A stretch of DNA of 62,988 nt, filler included, from Rhabdomonas costata (GCA_019059605.1; 47 parts of 47 records of this genome joined end to end with filler, not necessarily neighbours in it); one strand, 5' to 3'; shown: positions 1 through 40,676, numbered from the whole stretch's first letter. Notes: generated from the letters alone by a model not told the origin. A program made the numbers and translations.

Positions 1-190
1 TTTGTTTTTTGTGGTCTTAAAGTGTACTGTTTGAGCCTCTGCAAGGGTACAGCCTCTAATGATAGGACGGCACAGGTTTTTTGTAGTTTGCAGTGGTTGT
101 CTTCTTTCTGTTGTCGCTCTAAGTGCGCCTTTTTTTCCCGTCTCAGGCTGACCTTGGGCCCCAGCATGTCTCGACTCCCTTTGACTGCAG

Positions 191-1152
191 GCCCCCTGCG
201 GGGGCTGCAGTGGGGCCGGAAGCTGCTCTCGTGGACCCTGGTGTTGGAGTACTCGCTGTTCGCGCTGAGTGTGGTGGCCCTGTACTACATCAGGTCCCTT
301 CACCCCCTCCCCTCTCCACCTCCCTGAGTTAAACAGACGCTCAGCAGTGGCGCCCGTTTCGGTGGGGCAGGCCGGCGGGTGGGCTGGCTTCGAAGCTCAA
401 TCACTGGGGAGAGGTGGGGTTGCAGCCAAAGCCAAAGGTCAAGAGCTCGAGGCGAACACAGTGGTAGTGAGGGCAAGAGACCGCCAAGCCATCGAGAAAG
501 AAAGCCGTGTTCAAGGGTCACCATTGGTTCTGGCAATCCTCTGAAGCAGCCTCAGAGTACCACTCCGCGCCACCCACAGCAATACAGCAATACAATGGAA
601 GGATAGAACGAAACAGGGACAGAGGAACAGGAAAGTCAGCGAGTATGGGAGGCGTTTCAGTTCAGACCGCCTGCTGGTTAAACAACGGCGCCTTTTGGGT
701 TTATCTCTATAGCATCGTCCCTCTAAATGCGCTCAAGGGGCGCTCGTTTCGGTGGCGGGGGGATGGGGTGCACATAGCCCATGTCGTCCTATTGTGAGTT
801 CATCTCCTGAACCCTCGCCGCGACCACCACCACCTGGTCCAGTAAACTCCTCTAATCCCTTCACTCCTTCTTGCCATCTTGTGCAGAAGTCGGCGGCTAA
901 CGCAAAACTTACCCAAATTTCTTTTAGGGTGGCGCCCGCAATTGTTTTCCAATAGTTTCTCTTTTGCTCAGTCAGTATAGCTTCCTTCTGTTCCACTGCC
1001 TGGCCGAGCTGTTTGCGGTGCTGATCGGGTACTGCGTGGTACTCGTCGTGGTGCACACCCGGCACATCGTGAAGAATAGCCTGCTGGTCGCCGTGGGCAG
1101 TGTGTACGGCTTCGTTGCCACCCTGGACCTCTTCCACACCCTGACCTACAAG
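191..1152 (+). CDS. MASE3 membrane-associated sensor domain protein, partial; exons about 191-293 and 972-1152
   Basis: A GT-AG intron at 294-971 (phase 2) joins the frames to give ...LFALSVVALYYISQYSFLLFHCLAELFAVLIGYCVVLVVVHTRHIVKNSLLVAVGSVYGFVATLDLFHTLTYK. This matches the MASE3 signature YLLFHxxAELF...xDxxHTLxYKG. Next donor at 1153. Confidence 0.8.
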
Positions 1153-1243
1153 GTGGGGCTGCACAGCGTGGCTGCATTAAAAATCACACCAGGAAAGGGA
1201 CTATCGGACGTTGTATGGCCCTCGTCCAAAGAAAGAGATGAGA

Positions 1244-6279: not shown

Positions 6280-6780
6280 GCGGGGGCCTCGGCCTTCGAC
6301 GCCTTTTCCTACAATAGAAAGGCCACAGAGGCGCATCCAACACACACTCACACAACACCAAGAGAGAGAGAGACGGCACAAACGGGAAAAGCGGGCGGCG
6401 GTGAACACCACCACCCACACGACGCAACTTCACCACAATCTGTCTGACACATGGGGAAAGAGGGTGGAGCTGACTTCCATACTGCCAACCACAAACTTCC
6501 AAAAACCAGCCTAGAAGCGTTCTGCTAGCCTCCAGCTCGTCCAGGGAGACAACAGAAATCTACTTCGAGATCAATTTATTTGGTTTCAACCCTTTTCCAC
6601 TTGACAACAACCCANNNNNNNNNNNNNNNNNNNNNNNNNNNNNNNNNNNNNNNNNNNNTTAATTAATTAANNNNNNNNNNNNNNNNNNNNNNNNNNNNNN
6701 NNNNNNNNNNNNNNGTTTGTGGTTCTCCTTCATATATTTTTATTATTAATGAAGTTTCATTATCTGTATCATTCGAAATA

Positions 6781-7794
6781 ATGGATATTATAATACCACG
6801 TAATACAGTAATACCTGCAAATAAAACAAATATATATTCGAATGATACAGATAATGAAACTTCATTAATAATAAAAATATATGAAGGAGAACGGCAATTA
6901 ACAAAGGATAATACATTATTAGGAACATTAACATTAATGAATTTAGAACCAGTACCAAAAGGCTATGCGGAAATTTGTGTTAGATTTGAAATAAATTTAA
7001 ATGGAATAATAAATGTATCGGCACATGAACTTAAGAATAATATAAAACAGGATATACAAATTAATTTAAATAAAGGAAGATTAACAGAAGAACAAATTAA
7101 TTGTTTAATAGAAAATGCGAAGAGAATGGAGACACAAGATAATAATAATAAAATGAAAATATTACTACGTAATAAAATAAATGATTATTTTTTCATAATA
7201 AAATACAATTTATCATTAAAAAATGTGTTAATGACACAAGAAGATAAACAAGAACAAATAAATAAAGTTGAAAAATTAGAAAAATTATTTTTAGAAAATA
7301 ATGAATTATATGATATTAATGATTATAAAGAAATAATACAACAATTAGAAAATGAATATGGTAATTTAACAAATAGATCTGTATTACAAGATAATAATGA
7401 AATTGAAAATATAAATGAAAATAAAAAAGAAGAAGTTACATACAATGAAATAGATTATAAAGATGAATTATTAAGAATATGTGAAACAAAAAAAGAAGAA
7501 TTTAAAGATATTATAGAAGATACATTAATTTGGTTATATACAACAGAACATACTGATGATGAATTAATAAAAAAAATACAAGAAATAAATAATTTATCAA
7601 ATAATGAATCAGAAATAGTAAATACATGTAAAACAATATTACAATTTTTAGAAACAGAAGTATCTAAAAATATACAAAAAGAATTAACATCAGAAATCGA
7701 ATATTTTAAAAAAGTAATAGAAACGAATCAAGGAGATGAACAAATAATAAATGATTATTGTAACAGGATATATGAGTTTATTAATGAAAAATAA
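6781..7794 (+). CDS. hsp70: Divergent Hsp70, C-terminal half (substrate-binding domain, lid and long extension), giant-virus-like; 5' truncated
   Basis: IIPRNTVIP, IKIYEGERQLTKDNTLLG, FEINLNGIINVSA and NKGRLTEEQI are Hsp70 SBD motifs. The gene is intronless and very AT-rich, and has no EEVD or KDEL end. Confidence 0.9.
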   Translation: MDIIIPRNTVIPANKTNIYSNDTDNETSLIIKIYEGERQLTKDNTLLGTLTLMNLEPVPKGYAEICVRFEINLNGIINVSAHELKNNIKQDIQINLNKGRLTEEQINCLIENAKRMETQDNNNKMKILLRNKINDYFFIIKYNLSLKNVLMTQEDKQEQINKVEKLEKLFLENNELYDINDYKEIIQQLENEYGNLTNRSVLQDNNEIENINENKKEEVTYNEIDYKDELLRICETKKEEFKDIIEDTLIWLYTTEHTDDELIKKIQEINNLSNNESEIVNTCKTILQFLETEVSKNIQKELTSEIEYFKKVIETNQGDEQIINDYCNRIYEFINEK

Positions 7795-7818
7795 AGTGTA
7801 TAATTAAAGTATATATAA

Positions 7819-7957
7819 ATGACTATTGATATGAATAAAATTTTAAATAAAATAGAGGAAAAATATCAATTACGATATTGTGCCAGTATATTATCAATTC
7901 CTCTAAAATGTATAGAAAGCGGTGAAATGATAATTCAAGCAGGATCGCCACAAAACC
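7819..7957 (+). CDS. Hypothetical protein, 5' part, 24 nt downstream of the Hsp70
   Basis: ATG-initiated ORF open to the contig end, with the same AT-rich codon use and virus-like tight spacing. Confidence 0.65.
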
Positions 7958-36788: not shown

Positions 36789-37601
36789 GTGTGGTTTTGG
36801 GGCGAAATAATCGGTCCTACCCGAGGCCCCCGACGATTGGTGAGGTTCCGGAGGCCAGCTGAAGAGCCTAGACAGGCACAGCTTGTTGAACCTCCAGAAC
36901 ACAGAACAGCGAGTAGAGAAAGAACCAAAAAAACTCTATCAGTGCAAATGCAAAAGAGAACATTCATTCAAAAAAAAAACATTGTAAAAACGATCCCATC
37001 GGCAAACCGCGAGCTTGCTAACTTGAAGGAAGGATCCTGTTCCGCGATGGCTTCTGAAGTAGCCCTGAAGTAGAATAAAGTACATCGGGCTTCACTCCCT
37101 CGCTCGATCAAGGATTTACCATGGCCTTTTCTCTGGTGCAAGCCCGTAAAAACACACCCAGCGCTATAGTTCAGGGCGGGGATGAAAGTAAGTGATCGTG
37201 TTTTTTACCTGATCCACGTGTGCCCACGAACCGGCCAGCCGACGTGTTGACCGTAACCCGAATTTGGCGGGATATATAGCAAAGTGCGCAAATGTGCTTT
37301 GCCACAACGGAGACTTCCATTCTTAACAACCAGCACCTCAAACAACCTTTGTAAAACAAGAGGTCCTCCGCGACGAGGGCTGCACAACATCTAAACCAAA
37401 TCGCAAAACATACAAACAAAAAAAGGAAGGAATCCTTGAAGCTTCGCCGTCTGGCATCCCCGATACTCTAACATCCAACTGAATAAAACCACAACAANNN
37501 NNNNNNNNNNNNNNNNNNNNNNNNNNNNNNNNNNNNNNNNNTTAATTAATTAANNNNNNNNNNNNNNNNNNNNNNNNNNNNNNNNNNNNNNNNNNNNTTT
37601 T

Positions 37602-38810
37602 GTGGGTACTGGCTTGCATAAGCTTTGCTTTAGGGAAGTTGCAATGAAGCTCTGCCGCACGCAGAGATACAGCGACGCCTTGCGTGATGTGCTCGAGGAC
37701 TGCGTCGAGACTGAGACGGACGAGAACCGCCTCAAGCTCATCTTCAAATTGATTAAAATGGGCATCTGTGTCAATCATACCACTGGCTCCCTGGTTCCCT
37801 TGCACTATTTGGCCACAATGAAGATCCCTGAGGAGCATCTGCCCGAGCTGAAGAAGCTTCTTGTAGAAGCGAGGGCATGCGTGACAGAAAAGGCCAAATT
37901 CTCTTGCGTTCATGGGTGCCTCCCCATTACCAAGGGACAGACTCCCCTGGATATTCCCAAGACTCGTGAGATGCGGACGCTTCTGCAGGAAGTTCAAGAA
38001 GAAATTAGCAAAATCAGTGATTCCAAGCCTCAGCTGCACACGGTGCTGTGGATCAGCACAGACACCCTAGCAAAGGAAACAGAAAACGTTCGTACAGCCC
38101 TTGGCTCGAAAGACTTTGTCGAGGTGGACTACTTGGAGCTGAAGCTCGGCAGAGTGAAAACTCCGCTCTCTGGAGATCCCTGGCAAACCCAAGTTAGTAA
38201 AGTGCTGAACAAGAAAATGACGCACCTTGCCAAGGCCAGCCTGGAGGACCAGCCCTTGGAATGGCTGGTTGCCATTGTGGTGGAGTGGTCCGTAAAAGAA
38301 CACGCTGACCAAGTGAGCCACATCATCAACGTGTTGAAGGCTCACATTGGAGCTTGCTACAAGGAGCACCCGTACTGGCTGAAGATTATCTTGATGGTCC
38401 CTGACCTGAGGATCCAGCCTTCCAGCAACCGTACGGCGGTTTTTTCCACCGACGCGGCCACCCAGGACATCATTGTGCACACCCCGGTCGACGTGAACGT
38501 CTTCGCGCTCCACCGTGGTGCGACCGTGACTGACCCAGAGGACACCAAGGACTGCGACCTGGGAATTCAGCAGCTGAACTATCATCTGAACCAGGCCATG
38601 AAGTACTGCCGTCCCGTGGAGCCACCAAACCTCACTGTCCTGTGGATCTGCACCTCTGACAAGATCTCCTCATCGACCCTCAGTGCCCGGCAGACTCTGG
38701 ACGAGATGCGCGCGCTTCGTGTGGTGACCGTAGTCCTGGACACCATTGACCAAAGGGATGTCCGTGCGTGGCTCAGTGGGGTGCTGGAGGAGTACCTGGA
38801 ACCGGTACCG
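37602..38810 (+). CDS. Ankyrin-like segment followed by a tandemly duplicated unknown alpha/beta domain; open at both ends
   Basis: Uninterrupted frame of about 400 aa. GICVN...PLHYLA...LKKLLVEARA...GQTPLDI is ankyrin-like; TVLWI recurs about 200 aa apart. Confidence 0.75.
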
Positions 38811-40676
38811 GGCTCCAGGTACTCCTCCAAAACCCCAACNNNNNNNNNNNNNNNNNNNNNNNNNNNNNNNNNNNNNNNNNNNNTTAATTAATTAANNNNN
38901 NNNNNNNNNNNNNNNNNNNNNNNNNNNNNNNNNNNNNNNTCAGTAACCCATGGACGCATGAGGTGAAATTGAACCAAGGCGCTCGATCCGCGATGTAACT
39001 CAGCCATGATGGGACCACGTGTTACGTTGACCCTATGCGCAGGAGTCGCAGTGAGATACCCTGCGTAGTTGGGCGTAGGATGAAAGCCCTGGTGATGGAG
39101 GCCAGGCTATAGCGTAAACCAGCCCCGCATGAGGCAAGGCGCGTGGTGGCCGGTGGTATATGCCACTCAACCCACGTAGCTGAGCCCGATGTTGGTGCCT
39201 GGGGTGAGCTTGCTGTGTAACCATACCTATACGTATGGCAATGCCTGTAAGCCCCAGGGAGTCTGGAGCTGCATCACATCCCGTAGGAGGCTGTGTGCTG
39301 GACTTAGCATAGTAGGTACAACCGTACGTATGTGTATCGGTACAACCACTACTAAGGATCCCACGTGCAGTAGTACTAGCGATGTTGATGTTGGTCACAG
39401 CAGTCCTACCACTGGAGGTTGCACTACCGCATAGTTGGCACAGCACCACAGATGGCATGGATGCACTCGACCCACTCCATACACCCTATGCCATGGTGGT
39501 TGATGCGACACACCTGGTAATAGCATTGGTGCTAGAGGTACGTGATGATCGATGTTGTTACCCGTAGGACCGCTCCAATCACCAGATGTCATCATAGTCC
39601 CTTGGTGATACCATTCTGTAACGGAGGCTGCCAAGACCGACATGCAACATCCCTTCCTTCCACCCTCCAGAGGTGAGTGCGTAGAAGGAGTAAAGGGTGA
39701 TGTTGACATGATGGCTATGCGATGCTGGTGGTTGAGACCTGCTGCCTGTGAGGCGAAGGAGTGGAAGAAGTGAAACCACCACCAGACACACAGTGCATGC
39801 CAGGAGTGACACGAAGCCTCTACCATCAACGTAAGCCTAAACCTAAGCGTAACCTTCACTGAGGGTATTCGCTACGGCTACGCCAAGGACGGAGTGACAC
39901 GTACCGGCTTATGCCGGGGAGTGGAACGAAGTGACGCGTATGGTGATACGTTGATGGAAGGACCGACCGAAGGCACCTTATGATGGCGTAGGGAGGGACG
40001 TGTAGTGGTTGAGAGTGATAGGAGCAAACCACCAGCAGCTGCGTTGTTATTACTGGCCCAAAAACACCACCTTAAGACCGAAACCCAAATACCCAAATAC
40101 CCGATGAATTGAAACACTCGACTCGGAGACACGAATACCAACACCAATACGAATACCGAACCCCAAATACCGAACTCAGAAGNNNNNNNNNNNNNNNNNN
40201 NNNNNNNNNNNNNNNNNNNNNNNNNNTTAATTAATTAANNNNNNNNNNNNNNNNNNNNNNNNNNNNNNNNNNNNNNNNNNNNGGGTTTTGGGTCCAATTG
40301 GGATTCCTTAAGAGGATGTCAGTGGTGGTGATGACAGAGGATGATGTGGACCCGAAGGAGGTGGTGATGAGCCATCCCAATGAGGACCCGTACTAGCGGA
40401 GGAGGAATCACGGGTGGACACAGGTTGTCATAGAGTTCCTTCCAAGAGAACCGGAACTTGACCACACAGAGTTAGTGAGAAGAGGTCCAGTCAGTCAGGT
40501 CGAACTTCAGGAGTTTCTGAATGGTCGCCGAAATCGTTGTCGAGAAGTAGCCGAGAGAATTATCTGAAGACGAACCAGAAACTGGTTCAGAAAGGACGAA
40601 GTTTTCAAAAGGCCAGTTTCGTGGAGAGTATTCTATTCCTGGAAGTGAATATGGTCGAGAAAGTGGTCGATATGTG

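What the first reader, a model, noticed from the sequence alone, without database searches (positions are those of the whole stretch)
191..1152. Prokaryotic MASE3 membrane sensor domain split by a spliceosomal intron
Seen: two exons join in frame across a 678-nt GT-AG intron to give YYISQYSFLLFHCLAELF...LDLFHTLTYK, with another donor right after. Known: MASE3 is an integral-membrane sensor of bacterial and archaeal histidine kinases and cyclic-nucleotide signalling enzymes. Inference: introns exclude bacterial contamination, so this is a domesticated prokaryotic receptor in a protist. It may be the input of a MASE3-cyclase or MASE3-kinase receptor type that I do not know to be described in eukaryotes. 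The output domain lies off-contig.
Basis: partly seen in the sequence, partly recalled or inferred. Interest (0 to 1): 0.75.

Follow-up and report, generated by a model that had tools for sequence, protein, structure and literature searches.

The report
Bacterial-type MASE3 sensor kinase gene in a euglenid
A small genomic contig of the euglenid protist Rhabdomonas costata carries two exons of a membrane sensor histidine kinase of bacterial type, now interrupted by ordinary introns, so it is a genuine eukaryotic gene acquired from bacteria and not contamination.

Summary
Exon 972-1152 matches Pfam MASE3 (E 2.1e-16). A named EukProt protein of Rhabdomonas costata (RCo043423, 462 aa) is 100% identical to both exons and runs colinearly across a 678-nt GT-AG intron (294-971). 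It also shows an acceptor at 146/147 and a donor at 1152/1153. That protein set was predicted from a transcriptome (PMC8219788), so splicing is supported, though only indirectly.

The off-contig output is a HisKA histidine-kinase domain, not a cyclase. Full-length relatives have the order MASE3-HisKA-HATPase_c-REC: a second R. costata paralogue and a Peranema trichophorum protein.

Four euglenid proteins plus one metagenome protein form one clade (ultrafast bootstrap 100, SH-aLRT 99) against 41 prokaryotic or metagenomic relatives. This fits one old bacterial acquisition, followed by duplication and intron gain. The donor is unresolved.

Eukaryotic histidine kinases of bacterial origin are well known, and these sequences are already public. 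I found no paper describing MASE3 kinases in eukaryotes. Verdict: real, a new member of a known kind, of moderate interest.

The parts
1..146 (+). 3' part of an upstream intron: pyrimidine-rich tract about 128-144, acceptor AG at 145-146
   Evidence: P0001 matches the genome only from 148 onward (residue 15). Residues 1-14 are absent from the window. The genome reads ...SRLR|LTLGPSM where the protein has ...SCIG|LTLGPSM. Sequence CCTTTTTTTCCCGTCTCAG|G.
147..293 (+). Internal exon (147 nt). It encodes the third base of codon 14 through the first two bases of codon 63 of RCo043423. It contains an in-frame ATG at 166-168 (Met21), the disordered N-terminus and the first membrane helix.
   Evidence: tblastn gives 48 of 48 identical residues at 148-291. 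GC is 0.65. The AlphaFold2 model has a helix at 32-65. This helix aligns with the N-terminal helix of bacterial MASE3 proteins. There is no Pfam hit on its own.
294..971 (+). Conventional spliceosomal-type intron, 678 nt, GT...AG, phase 2, with a pyrimidine tract at 956-969
   Evidence: Boundaries CAG|GTCCCT and TTTCTCTTTTGCTCAG|T. It is absent from the transcript-derived protein P0001. GC is 0.55, against GC3 of 0.88 in the exons. An in-frame stop lies at 325-327. No second copy exists in the window.
972..1152 (+). Exon (181 nt) encoding residues 63 (third base) to 123. It covers membrane helices 2 and 3 of MASE3, with the LFHxxAE and LDLFHTLTYK motifs.
   Evidence: Pfam MASE3 E 2.1e-16, profile 4-62/226. 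60 of 60 residues are identical to P0001. It carries 7 of the nearly invariant MASE3 positions: L69, F70, H71, E75, D115, H118, Y122.
1153..1243 (+). 5' part of the next intron (GT at 1153-1154, phase 0). The contig ends at 1243.
   Evidence: P0001 continues with GMGVFPFED after K123, while the genome reads VGLHSVAALK. Donor AAG|GTGGGG. Bacterial homologues read YKGM without a gap at this point.

Best explanation
Contig 1-1243 is a piece of a nuclear gene of the euglenid Rhabdomonas costata, or a near-identical strain. The gene encodes an integral-membrane sensor histidine kinase of bacterial type. An ancestor of spirocute euglenids acquired a complete MASE3-HisKA-HATPase_c-REC hybrid kinase gene from a bacterium. 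The gene then duplicated, took on the host's GC3-rich codon usage and gained conventional introns. Two of these introns flank exon 972-1152.

Proposed working (inferred): eight membrane helices form the sensor. They carry the conserved buried polar residues of MASE3: H71, E75, D115, H118, Y122, W140, R144, K207, E211, Y212, E294, H312 and K315. The signal is unknown, as it is for all MASE3 proteins. The last membrane helix runs into a long helix that leads to the dimerisation/phosphoacceptor domain with His372. A conformational change in the bundle would set autophosphorylation of His372. The phosphate would then pass to a C-terminal receiver Asp and on to a phosphorelay.

Shown here: MASE3 and HisKA membership, exon-intron structure, identity with a transcript-derived protein, the euglenid-only clade, and retention of 28 of 32 conserved positions.

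Inferred: the direction and timing of the transfer, the presence of the ATPase and receiver domains in this particular paralogue, the signal, and kinase activity.
For: - Pfam MASE3 on the exon and on the whole protein (E 1.5e-55), plus HisKA at E 4.1e-16.
- P0001 is 100% identical to both exons, and colinear across GT-AG boundaries at three splice sites.
- P0001 is EP00906_Rhabdomonas_costata_P030703 / RCo043423. The RCo proteins were predicted from the transcriptome, because the genome draft was too fragmented for gene prediction; conventional GT/AG introns are reported as the norm (PMC8219788, passages read).
- Exon GC3 is 0.88 and exon GC 0.59-0.65, against intron GC 0.55. The paper gives 58% GC for the transcriptome and 52% for the genome.
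- Bacterial homologues align without a gap across both junctions, so the introns interrupt a formerly continuous coding sequence.
- Paralogues and homologue: RCo017388, RCo053378 and a Peranema trichophorum protein. RCo053378 and the Peranema protein have MASE3-HisKA-HATPase_c-REC (precomputed Pfam; scan of the Peranema protein).
- Trees: the 4 euglenid proteins plus metagenome protein P0191 form a clade with SH-aLRT 100 in the 90-row quick tree. In the 46-row careful tree the support is 100/99, and the clade appears in 100% of 200 bootstrap trees.
- The closest non-euglenid relatives share the same four-domain order (4 of the 6 scanned: P0127, P0128, P0130, P0132).
- 28 of 32 invariant or nearly invariant MASE3-region positions are retained. 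The H-box SHEIRTPLNG is intact, with His372.
- AlphaFold2 model: mean pLDDT 86.1, pTM 0.75, eight membrane helices followed by long helices into the HisKA region.
Against:
- P0001 ends at residue 462 inside the kinase core. The ATPase and receiver domains of this paralogue are therefore unseen. Its closest paralogue RCo017388 has Asn in place of the phosphoacceptor His, so part of the family may not be catalytic.
- The bacterial sister group differs between trees: unresolved, P0127 in the quick tree, P0149 at 61/86. The trees are unrooted. The donor, and strictly the direction of transfer, are not shown.
- Absence from other eukaryotes rests only on the listed top hits: 5, 120 and 120 rows, plus 18 of the 150 representatives looked up.
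- The paper on the protein set notes that some prokaryote-affiliated proteins may be contaminants. That caveat is removed here only for RCo043423, the one paralogue with genomic exons in hand.
Confidence: 0.85

Rival explanations
1. The MASE3 sequence is bacterial contamination, and the apparent introns are an artefact. Examples would be a chimeric contig from amplified DNA, or chance GT/AG dinucleotides next to two bacterial fragments.
For: The culture behind the named protein set was not axenic. One DNA sample still contained bacterial DNA, and both samples were whole-genome amplified. Some prokaryote-like transcripts are judged contaminants in that paper. The window itself contains a compositionally foreign contig with 30% GC.
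Against: - An independently assembled transcript product matches both exons at 100%. It breaks exactly at GT, AG and pyrimidine-tract signals at three sites.
- No bacterial protein is closer than about 44% identity overall; the closest is 47% over the 60-residue exon.
- GC3 of 0.88 contrasts with the intervening sequence.
- The protein groups with other euglenid proteins, including one from a different class.
Confidence: 0.03
2. The gene is real and eukaryotic, but the euglenid distribution does not come from a single old transfer with vertical descent. Either Rhabdomonas and Peranema acquired related genes separately, or the Peranema sequence comes from prey or a contaminant, or the family is an ancient eukaryotic gene lost almost everywhere.
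For: Only two euglenid species are represented, and no Euglena or other euglenozoan sequence appeared in any list. The trees are unrooted and the bacterial sister is unstable. The Peranema entry's name looks like that of an assembled transcript, and I have no genomic DNA for it.
Against: - The euglenid clade has 100/99 support. The Peranema protein nests next to R. costata RCo053378 (54% identity over 676 residues), inside the clade and away from 41 and 85 non-euglenid rows.
- Two separate transfers would need the same unsampled donor lineage.
- No other eukaryotic sequence was seen among the rows whose source was shown.
Confidence: 0.08
3. The gene is expressed and spliced, but it no longer acts as a phosphorelay kinase. 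It would be a degenerate or repurposed membrane protein, or a pseudokinase.
For: The nearest paralogue RCo017388 has SNEIRAP in place of SHE(I/L)RTP. Pfam did not detect its receiver region at E 0.001 or better. The subfamily carries a 40-50-residue low-confidence insert in a loop. No HPt or response-regulator partner was looked for. Kinetoplastid relatives were reported to lack histidine kinases in one survey.
Against: RCo043423 itself keeps His372 and the whole H-box, plus 28 of 32 conserved MASE3-region positions. RCo053378 and the Peranema protein keep all four domains above Pfam thresholds.
Confidence: 0.1

Closest known systems
Bacterial MASE3 hybrid histidine kinases. Examples are proteins named 'MASE3 domain-containing protein' from Desulfococcaceae, Phycisphaerae and Armatimonadota metagenome bins, and P0127-P0132.
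   Same: The domain order MASE3-HisKA-HATPase_c-REC is the same. The alignment has no gap at either intron junction or through the conserved motif blocks. 28 of 32 conserved positions are kept. No ligand is known for any of them.
   Different: Overall identity is about 31-44%. The euglenid gene has spliceosomal-type introns and GC3-rich codons. There is a 40-50-residue loop insert in the RCo043423/RCo017388 subfamily. The euglenid proteins form their own clade.
MASE1-domain histidine kinases of early-diverging land plants (Physcomitrella, Marchantia, Selaginella), as described in PMC6324907
   Same: These are eukaryotic histidine kinases whose input is an integral-membrane sensor domain otherwise typical of bacteria and of unknown ligand (passages read).
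   Different: MASE1 and MASE3 are different Pfam families. The hosts are plants, not euglenids. No relation between the two was tested here.
Multi-pass membrane histidine kinases of Naegleria gruberi (Discoba), PMC6324907
   Same: They belong to the same eukaryotic supergroup. They are mostly membrane-bound hybrid kinases without a recognised sensing domain.
   Different: No MASE3 domain is reported for them in the passages read. They did not appear in my searches, and I made no direct comparison.
GacS / RetS-type kinase cores (PDB 7z8n, 7n0e, 6dk7)
   Same: These are the best solved-structure matches of the HisKA region. 7z8n_A covers residues 344-459 with E 3.6e-18 and 35% identity.
   Different: The match covers the phosphoacceptor domain only. 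No solved structure matches the MASE3 membrane part by sequence: all 22 hits start at residue 339 or later.

Membership tests
Pfam MASE3 (PF17159) | HMM score above the curated gathering threshold (31 bits) | tested here: met
   The exon alone scores 60.7 bits, E 2.1e-16. The whole protein P0001 scores 188.7 bits, E 1.5e-55.
Pfam MASE3 (PF17159) | Conserved polar and aromatic residues of the membrane helices (LFHxxxE, DxxHxxxYxGM, WxxxR, FP, TxFKxxxEY, ExxxTxY, GHxxK) | tested here: met
   28 of 32 invariant or nearly invariant positions of a 69-sequence alignment are retained in P0001. Seven of them are encoded on the window contig.
Pfam MASE3 (PF17159) | Multi-pass integral-membrane topology | tested here: met
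   The AlphaFold2 model (pLDDT 86.1) has eight long helices between residues 32 and 332. A hydropathy scan finds the matching hydrophobic segments. This is a prediction only.
Pfam MASE3 (PF17159) | N-terminal input fused to a signalling output domain | tested here: met
   HisKA at residues 362-427, E 4.1e-16.
Hybrid sensor histidine kinase (two-component phosphorelay) | HisKA/DHp domain with the phosphoacceptor histidine in an H-box | tested here: met
   SHEIRTPLNG with His372.
Hybrid sensor histidine kinase (two-component phosphorelay) | HATPase_c catalytic domain | tested here: inconclusive
   P0001 ends at residue 462, before this domain. The domain is present in the paralogues RCo017388 and RCo053378 and in the Peranema protein.
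Hybrid sensor histidine kinase (two-component phosphorelay) | C-terminal receiver domain with acceptor Asp | tested here: inconclusive
   Unseen for this paralogue because the protein is truncated. Response_reg scores E 1.6e-17 in the Peranema protein and is listed for RCo053378. In RCo017388 it is degenerate and Pfam does not detect it.
Hybrid sensor histidine kinase (two-component phosphorelay) | Autophosphorylation and phosphotransfer to HPt and a response regulator | not testable with these tools
   This needs biochemistry.
Conventional (spliceosomal-type) euglenid intron | GT...AG boundaries with a pyrimidine tract before the acceptor | tested here: met
   CAG|GTCCCT ... TTTCTCTTTTGCTCAG|T. 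In addition, an acceptor CCCGTCTCAG|G and a donor AAG|GTGGGG.
Conventional (spliceosomal-type) euglenid intron | Absent from the mature mRNA | tested here: met
   Met indirectly. The transcript-derived protein is colinear across the gap, and the protein set was predicted from the transcriptome. Direct reads were not available.
Gene of bacterial origin in a eukaryote (horizontal transfer) | Relatives outside the recipient lineage are prokaryotic, and the recipient sequences form one clade | tested here: met
   Only euglenid proteins carry a eukaryotic source among the rows shown. Clade support is 100/99.
Gene of bacterial origin in a eukaryote (horizontal transfer) | Identified donor lineage and rooted direction of transfer | tested here: inconclusive
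   The sister group changes between trees. The trees are unrooted.

The most novel reading that the evidence does not exclude
Euglenids hold an old, vertically inherited and diversified family of bacterial MASE3 hybrid kinases. At least two subfamilies would predate the split of Anisonemea and Peranemea, and one contains a paralogue without the phosphoacceptor His. These would be working membrane receptors feeding a His-Asp phosphorelay in Euglenozoa, a phylum whose well-studied members (trypanosomatids) were reported to have none in one survey. The membrane part is a seven-helix bundle packed like a G-protein-coupled receptor, preceded by one extra helix and wired directly to a kinase. This would make it a tractable eukaryotic system for finding what MASE3 senses.
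Probability: 0.45. Interest if true: 0.5.

Novelty: new member of a known kind. Interest (0 to 1): 0.35.

Why it matters
- It is a clean, checkable case of a bacterial membrane receptor gene that became a resident eukaryotic gene. It shows introns inserted into a once continuous reading frame, one of them inside the conserved YKGM motif. It shows host codon usage, duplication, and presence in two euglenid classes.
- It adds euglenids to the eukaryotes that have histidine-kinase receptors. It adds MASE3 to the short list of bacterial membrane input domains used by eukaryotic kinases, alongside CHASE, the ethylene-binding domain and MASE1.
- It rescues at least one 'prokaryote-affiliated' protein of a published protist transcriptome from the suspicion of contamination.
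- It does not change any concept. Horizontally acquired histidine kinases are common in free-living protists, and the ligand of MASE3 remains unknown.

Tried and rejected
- Whole-genome search of the window's assembly: no genome is held.
Direct read support is therefore missing.
- Pfam on the upstream-exon peptide alone: no family. Its role as the first membrane helix comes from alignment and the model only.
- Scan of JGI metagenome contigs with P0001: 24 loci, all matching only residues 322-462 (the kinase core) at 34-52% identity. There was no close relative and no longer genomic copy.
- tblastn of P0001 and of the three other euglenid-clade proteins against the other 46 contigs of the window: nothing beyond the known exon. 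E was 0.3 or higher for P0001, and no further hit reached 1e-3 for the others.
- ESM Atlas: only bacterial MASE3 and MASE4 clusters, scores up to 0.92.
- Foldseek against the PDB: no match at E 0.001 or better. By PDB sequence, only the kinase core matches.
- VIA-align against 48,161 chains: residues about 61-338 align to 7TM G-protein-coupled receptor bundles, best Z 14.5, rmsd 4.2 A over 218 residues, 5-12% identity. The tool warns that Z under about 13 is common for helical bundles. I take this as a shared helix arrangement, not as kinship.
MASE3-GGDEF-EAL proteins were found only among bacterial hits.
- Spliced-leader addition at the 146/147 acceptor is rejected. The 14 residues upstream in P0001 and the Gly14 codon do not fit the published leader ending ...TTTTTTCG.
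- Literature: 'MASE3' gave 5 papers, none relevant by title. 'Histidine kinase' with 'euglenid' gave 11. 'Euglena' with 'hybrid histidine kinase' gave 3. 'Histidine kinase' with 'Euglenozoa' and 'horizontal gene transfer' gave 10. None describes euglenid histidine kinases by title or in the passages read. The term 'histidine kinase' occurs 0 times in PMC8219788 and PMC7052976. Supplementary tables of these papers were closed and might list this protein.

Full report
**What the window is.** The 62,988-base window is not one locus. It consists of 47 pieces of 1,236-1,247 bases joined by N-runs with a TTAATTAATTAA linker. These are small contigs of a fragmented assembly placed end to end. The finding lies wholly on the first piece (1-1243), and nothing on the other pieces can be assumed to be linked to it. 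No whole genome is held for the window.

**The observation.** The sequence shows CAG|GT at 293/294 and CTCAG|T at 971/972, an interval of 678 nt. The 60 codons at 973-1152 match Pfam MASE3 with E 2.1e-16 and 60.7 bits, against a curated cut-off of 31, at profile positions 4-62 of 226. The open frame upstream of 972 (928-971) has no start codon, so this coding block needs an upstream exon. Reading from the upstream exon straight on into 294 onward meets a stop at 325-327.

**Independent support for the splice sites.** A search with the exon peptide returned P0001, a 462-residue protein held by EukProt as RCo043423, at 100% identity. An exact look-up names it EP00906_Rhabdomonas_costata_P030703.

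tblastn of P0001 against the window gives these results:
- Residues 15-62 match 148-291 at 48 of 48.
- Residues 64-123 match 973-1152 at 60 of 60.
- Ser63 is formed by AG (292-293) plus T (972).
- Residues 1-14 and 124-462 are not in the window.

At the 5' side the protein and genome part company exactly at an acceptor, CCCGTCTCAG|G at 146/147. At the 3' side they part at a donor, AAG|GTGGGG at 1152/1153. There the protein continues GMGVF while the genome reads VGLHS. Three splice sites with canonical dinucleotides, and pyrimidine tracts before both acceptors, are thus marked by one protein.

The paper describing the RCo protein set states that the 39,456 proteins were predicted from the transcriptome. 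It says the genome draft was too fragmented for gene prediction, and that introns were found by mapping transcripts to contigs, nearly all being GT/AG (PMC8219788, passages read). A 462-residue product could not have been predicted from a 1.2-kb contig in any case. The exons have GC 0.59-0.65 and GC3 0.88, and the intron has GC 0.55. This fits the 58% transcriptome and 52% genome GC given in that paper. I consider the intron real. The caveat is that the evidence is a transcript-derived protein, not reads.

The upstream exon spans 147-293, not 191-293, and it is an internal exon. Its peptide has no Pfam match of its own. It encodes the disordered N-terminus and the first membrane helix (model helix 32-65). 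That helix aligns with the N-terminal helix found in the bacterial MASE3 proteins compared. Pfam's model starts at residue 62, so by Pfam's boundaries intron 294-971 sits at the very edge of the domain. The next intron (1152/1153) cuts inside the domain, between K and G of the conserved YKGM motif. Bacterial homologues align without a gap across both junctions. The introns therefore interrupt a frame that is continuous in bacteria.

**What the gene encodes.** P0001 has MASE3 (E 1.5e-55) followed by HisKA (E 4.1e-16, residues 362-427). It ends inside the kinase core, so the off-contig output is a histidine kinase, not a cyclase.

P0001 keeps 28 of 32 invariant or nearly invariant positions of a 69-sequence alignment. 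It also keeps an intact H-box with His372.

An AlphaFold2 model built on that alignment has mean pLDDT 86.1 and pTM 0.75. It shows eight membrane helices. The last helix (306-332) is followed by a long helix (334-389) that carries His372. The only low-confidence parts are residues 1-27 and a loop insert around 253-271. That insert is shared with the nearest paralogue and absent from bacterial proteins.

No solved structure matches the membrane part by sequence: all 22 PDB hits start at residue 339 or later, and the best is 7z8n_A at E 3.6e-18. Foldseek finds nothing at E 0.001 or better. An exhaustive structural comparison aligns residues about 61-338 with seven-helix G-protein-coupled receptor bundles (best Z 14.5, rmsd 4.2 A, 218 residues, 5-12% identity). 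The tool itself warns that such Z values are common for helical bundles. I read this as a similar packing of helices 2-8, not as homology.

**Relatives.** A HMMER scan of 1.84 billion representatives gave 1,654 proteins at E 1e-30 or better. I looked up the sources of the top 17 plus P0191.
- The best hit, at 49% identity, is a second R. costata protein, RCo017388.
- The second, at 42% identity, is EP01004_Peranema_trichophorum_P004728.
- The other 15 of the top 17, and P0191, come from NCBI, ENA or JGI genome and metagenome records.

A profile search with the three euglenid proteins added a third R. costata paralogue, RCo053378 (738 aa, 54% identical to the Peranema protein). It also added an ENA metagenome protein, P0191 (381 aa), which is 87% identical to RCo053378.

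Among the rows whose source was shown, only these four proteins carry a eukaryotic source: 1 of 5 rows, 1 of 120 and 2 of 120.

The Peranema protein and RCo053378 have MASE3-HisKA-HATPase_c-REC. So do 4 of the 6 closest non-euglenid proteins scanned. RCo017388 has MASE3 (N-terminally truncated), HisKA and HATPase_c. It has Asn in place of the phosphoacceptor His, and a receiver-like tail that Pfam does not detect.

**Phylogeny.** In a 90-row tree (673 columns, LG+C20 PMSF, quick search), the four euglenid proteins and P0191 form one group with SH-aLRT 100. The other 85 rows lie on the far side. Inside the group, (RCo043423, RCo017388) has support 99, and (Peranema, (RCo053378, P0191)) has support 100.

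A 46-row careful tree (635 columns, LG+G4) gives the group 100/99, and the group appears in 100% of 200 bootstrap trees. For the smaller tree I chose the rows by hand from the larger one, 46 of the 90.

The bacterial sister is unstable: none resolved, P0127 in the interim quick tree, and P0149 at 61/86. The trees are unrooted. R. costata and P. trichophorum belong to different classes of Spirocuta in the NCBI taxonomy.

The simplest reading is a single acquisition before these lineages split, at least one duplication, and later intron gain. P0191 has an uninterrupted frame across the positions homologous to both introns. If P0191 comes from genomic DNA, the introns are specific to the RCo043423 subfamily. 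I could not establish what kind of record it comes from.

**How it most likely works.** By analogy with bacterial hybrid kinases (established knowledge of two-component systems), the membrane bundle senses a still unknown cue. Its conformational change travels along the helix that continues from the last membrane span into the dimeric phosphoacceptor domain. His372 is phosphorylated by the ATPase domain, and the phosphate moves to the receiver Asp and then to HPt and response-regulator proteins.

Only the domain content, the conserved residues and the predicted helical continuity are shown here. The ATPase and receiver domains of this paralogue, its partners, its location and its signal are inferred or unknown.

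**What is known.**
- A survey of eukaryotic histidine kinases sampled only Leishmania and Trypanosoma for Euglenozoa and found none. It describes MASE1-domain kinases in early land plants and many multi-pass kinases in Naegleria (PMC6324907, passages).
- An older census reports HK-domain proteins in some Leishmania species (PMC4558063, passages). I therefore do not claim a first for the phylum.
- Neither survey looked at euglenids.
- The R. costata paper and a comparative euglenozoan paper do not contain the term 'histidine kinase'.
- The Euglena gracilis genome paper uses the term only in spelling out HAMP.
- Searches for MASE3, and for euglenid or Euglena histidine kinases, found nothing relevant. 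The searchable library lacks most subscription journals, and supplements were closed.

**Verdict.** The case is a well-documented new member of a known kind: a horizontally acquired sensor kinase in a free-living protist. Its sequences are already public but it is apparently undescribed. Interest is moderate.

Noticed in passing
window 1-62988: The window is 47 separate contigs of about 1.24 kb, sorted by length and joined by N44-TTAATTAATTAA-N44 linkers. Neighbouring pieces are not genomic neighbours.
   Followed up: yes
window 6715-7957: This contig has about 30% GC against about 50% elsewhere. It carries an uninterrupted 359-codon frame matching the C-terminal part of Hsp70 (E 4e-34, profile 395-594/599). 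It is compositionally foreign and may come from another organism in the sample.
   Followed up: partly
window 37599-38837 (+): A whole contig is one open frame of 413 codons with no Pfam family at E 0.001 or better. Eight other frames of 219-300 codons on other contigs were also scanned and gave no hit.
   Followed up: partly
protein P0125 (EukProt RCo017388), not in the window: The closest paralogue (46-49% identity) has Asn instead of the phosphoacceptor His (SNEIRAP). Pfam does not detect its receiver-like C-terminus. It may be a pseudokinase member of the family.
   Followed up: partly
protein P0191 (ENA metagenome, contig of 3,775 nt), not in the window: This protein is 87% identical to R. 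costata RCo053378 over 365 residues. Its frame is uninterrupted across the positions homologous to both introns of the window's gene. Its last residues diverge from RCo053378 as if the frame ran into an intron. It probably comes from an environmental relative of Rhabdomonas.
   Followed up: partly
model m58f5b88790cf, residues about 61-338: Helices 2-8 of the predicted MASE3 bundle superpose on seven-helix G-protein-coupled receptor structures. All 50 listed matches are such receptors or a designed GPCR-like fold. The best has Z 14.5 and rmsd 4.2 A over 218 residues, which is borderline by the tool's own note for helical bundles.
   Followed up: partly
proteins P0001 residues about 229-276 and P0125, not in the window: The RCo043423/RCo017388 subfamily has a 40-50-residue insert, partly Cys/Gly-rich, in the loop before the seventh membrane helix. 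The insert is absent from the Peranema/RCo053378 subfamily and from bacterial homologues. It has low model confidence.
   Followed up: no
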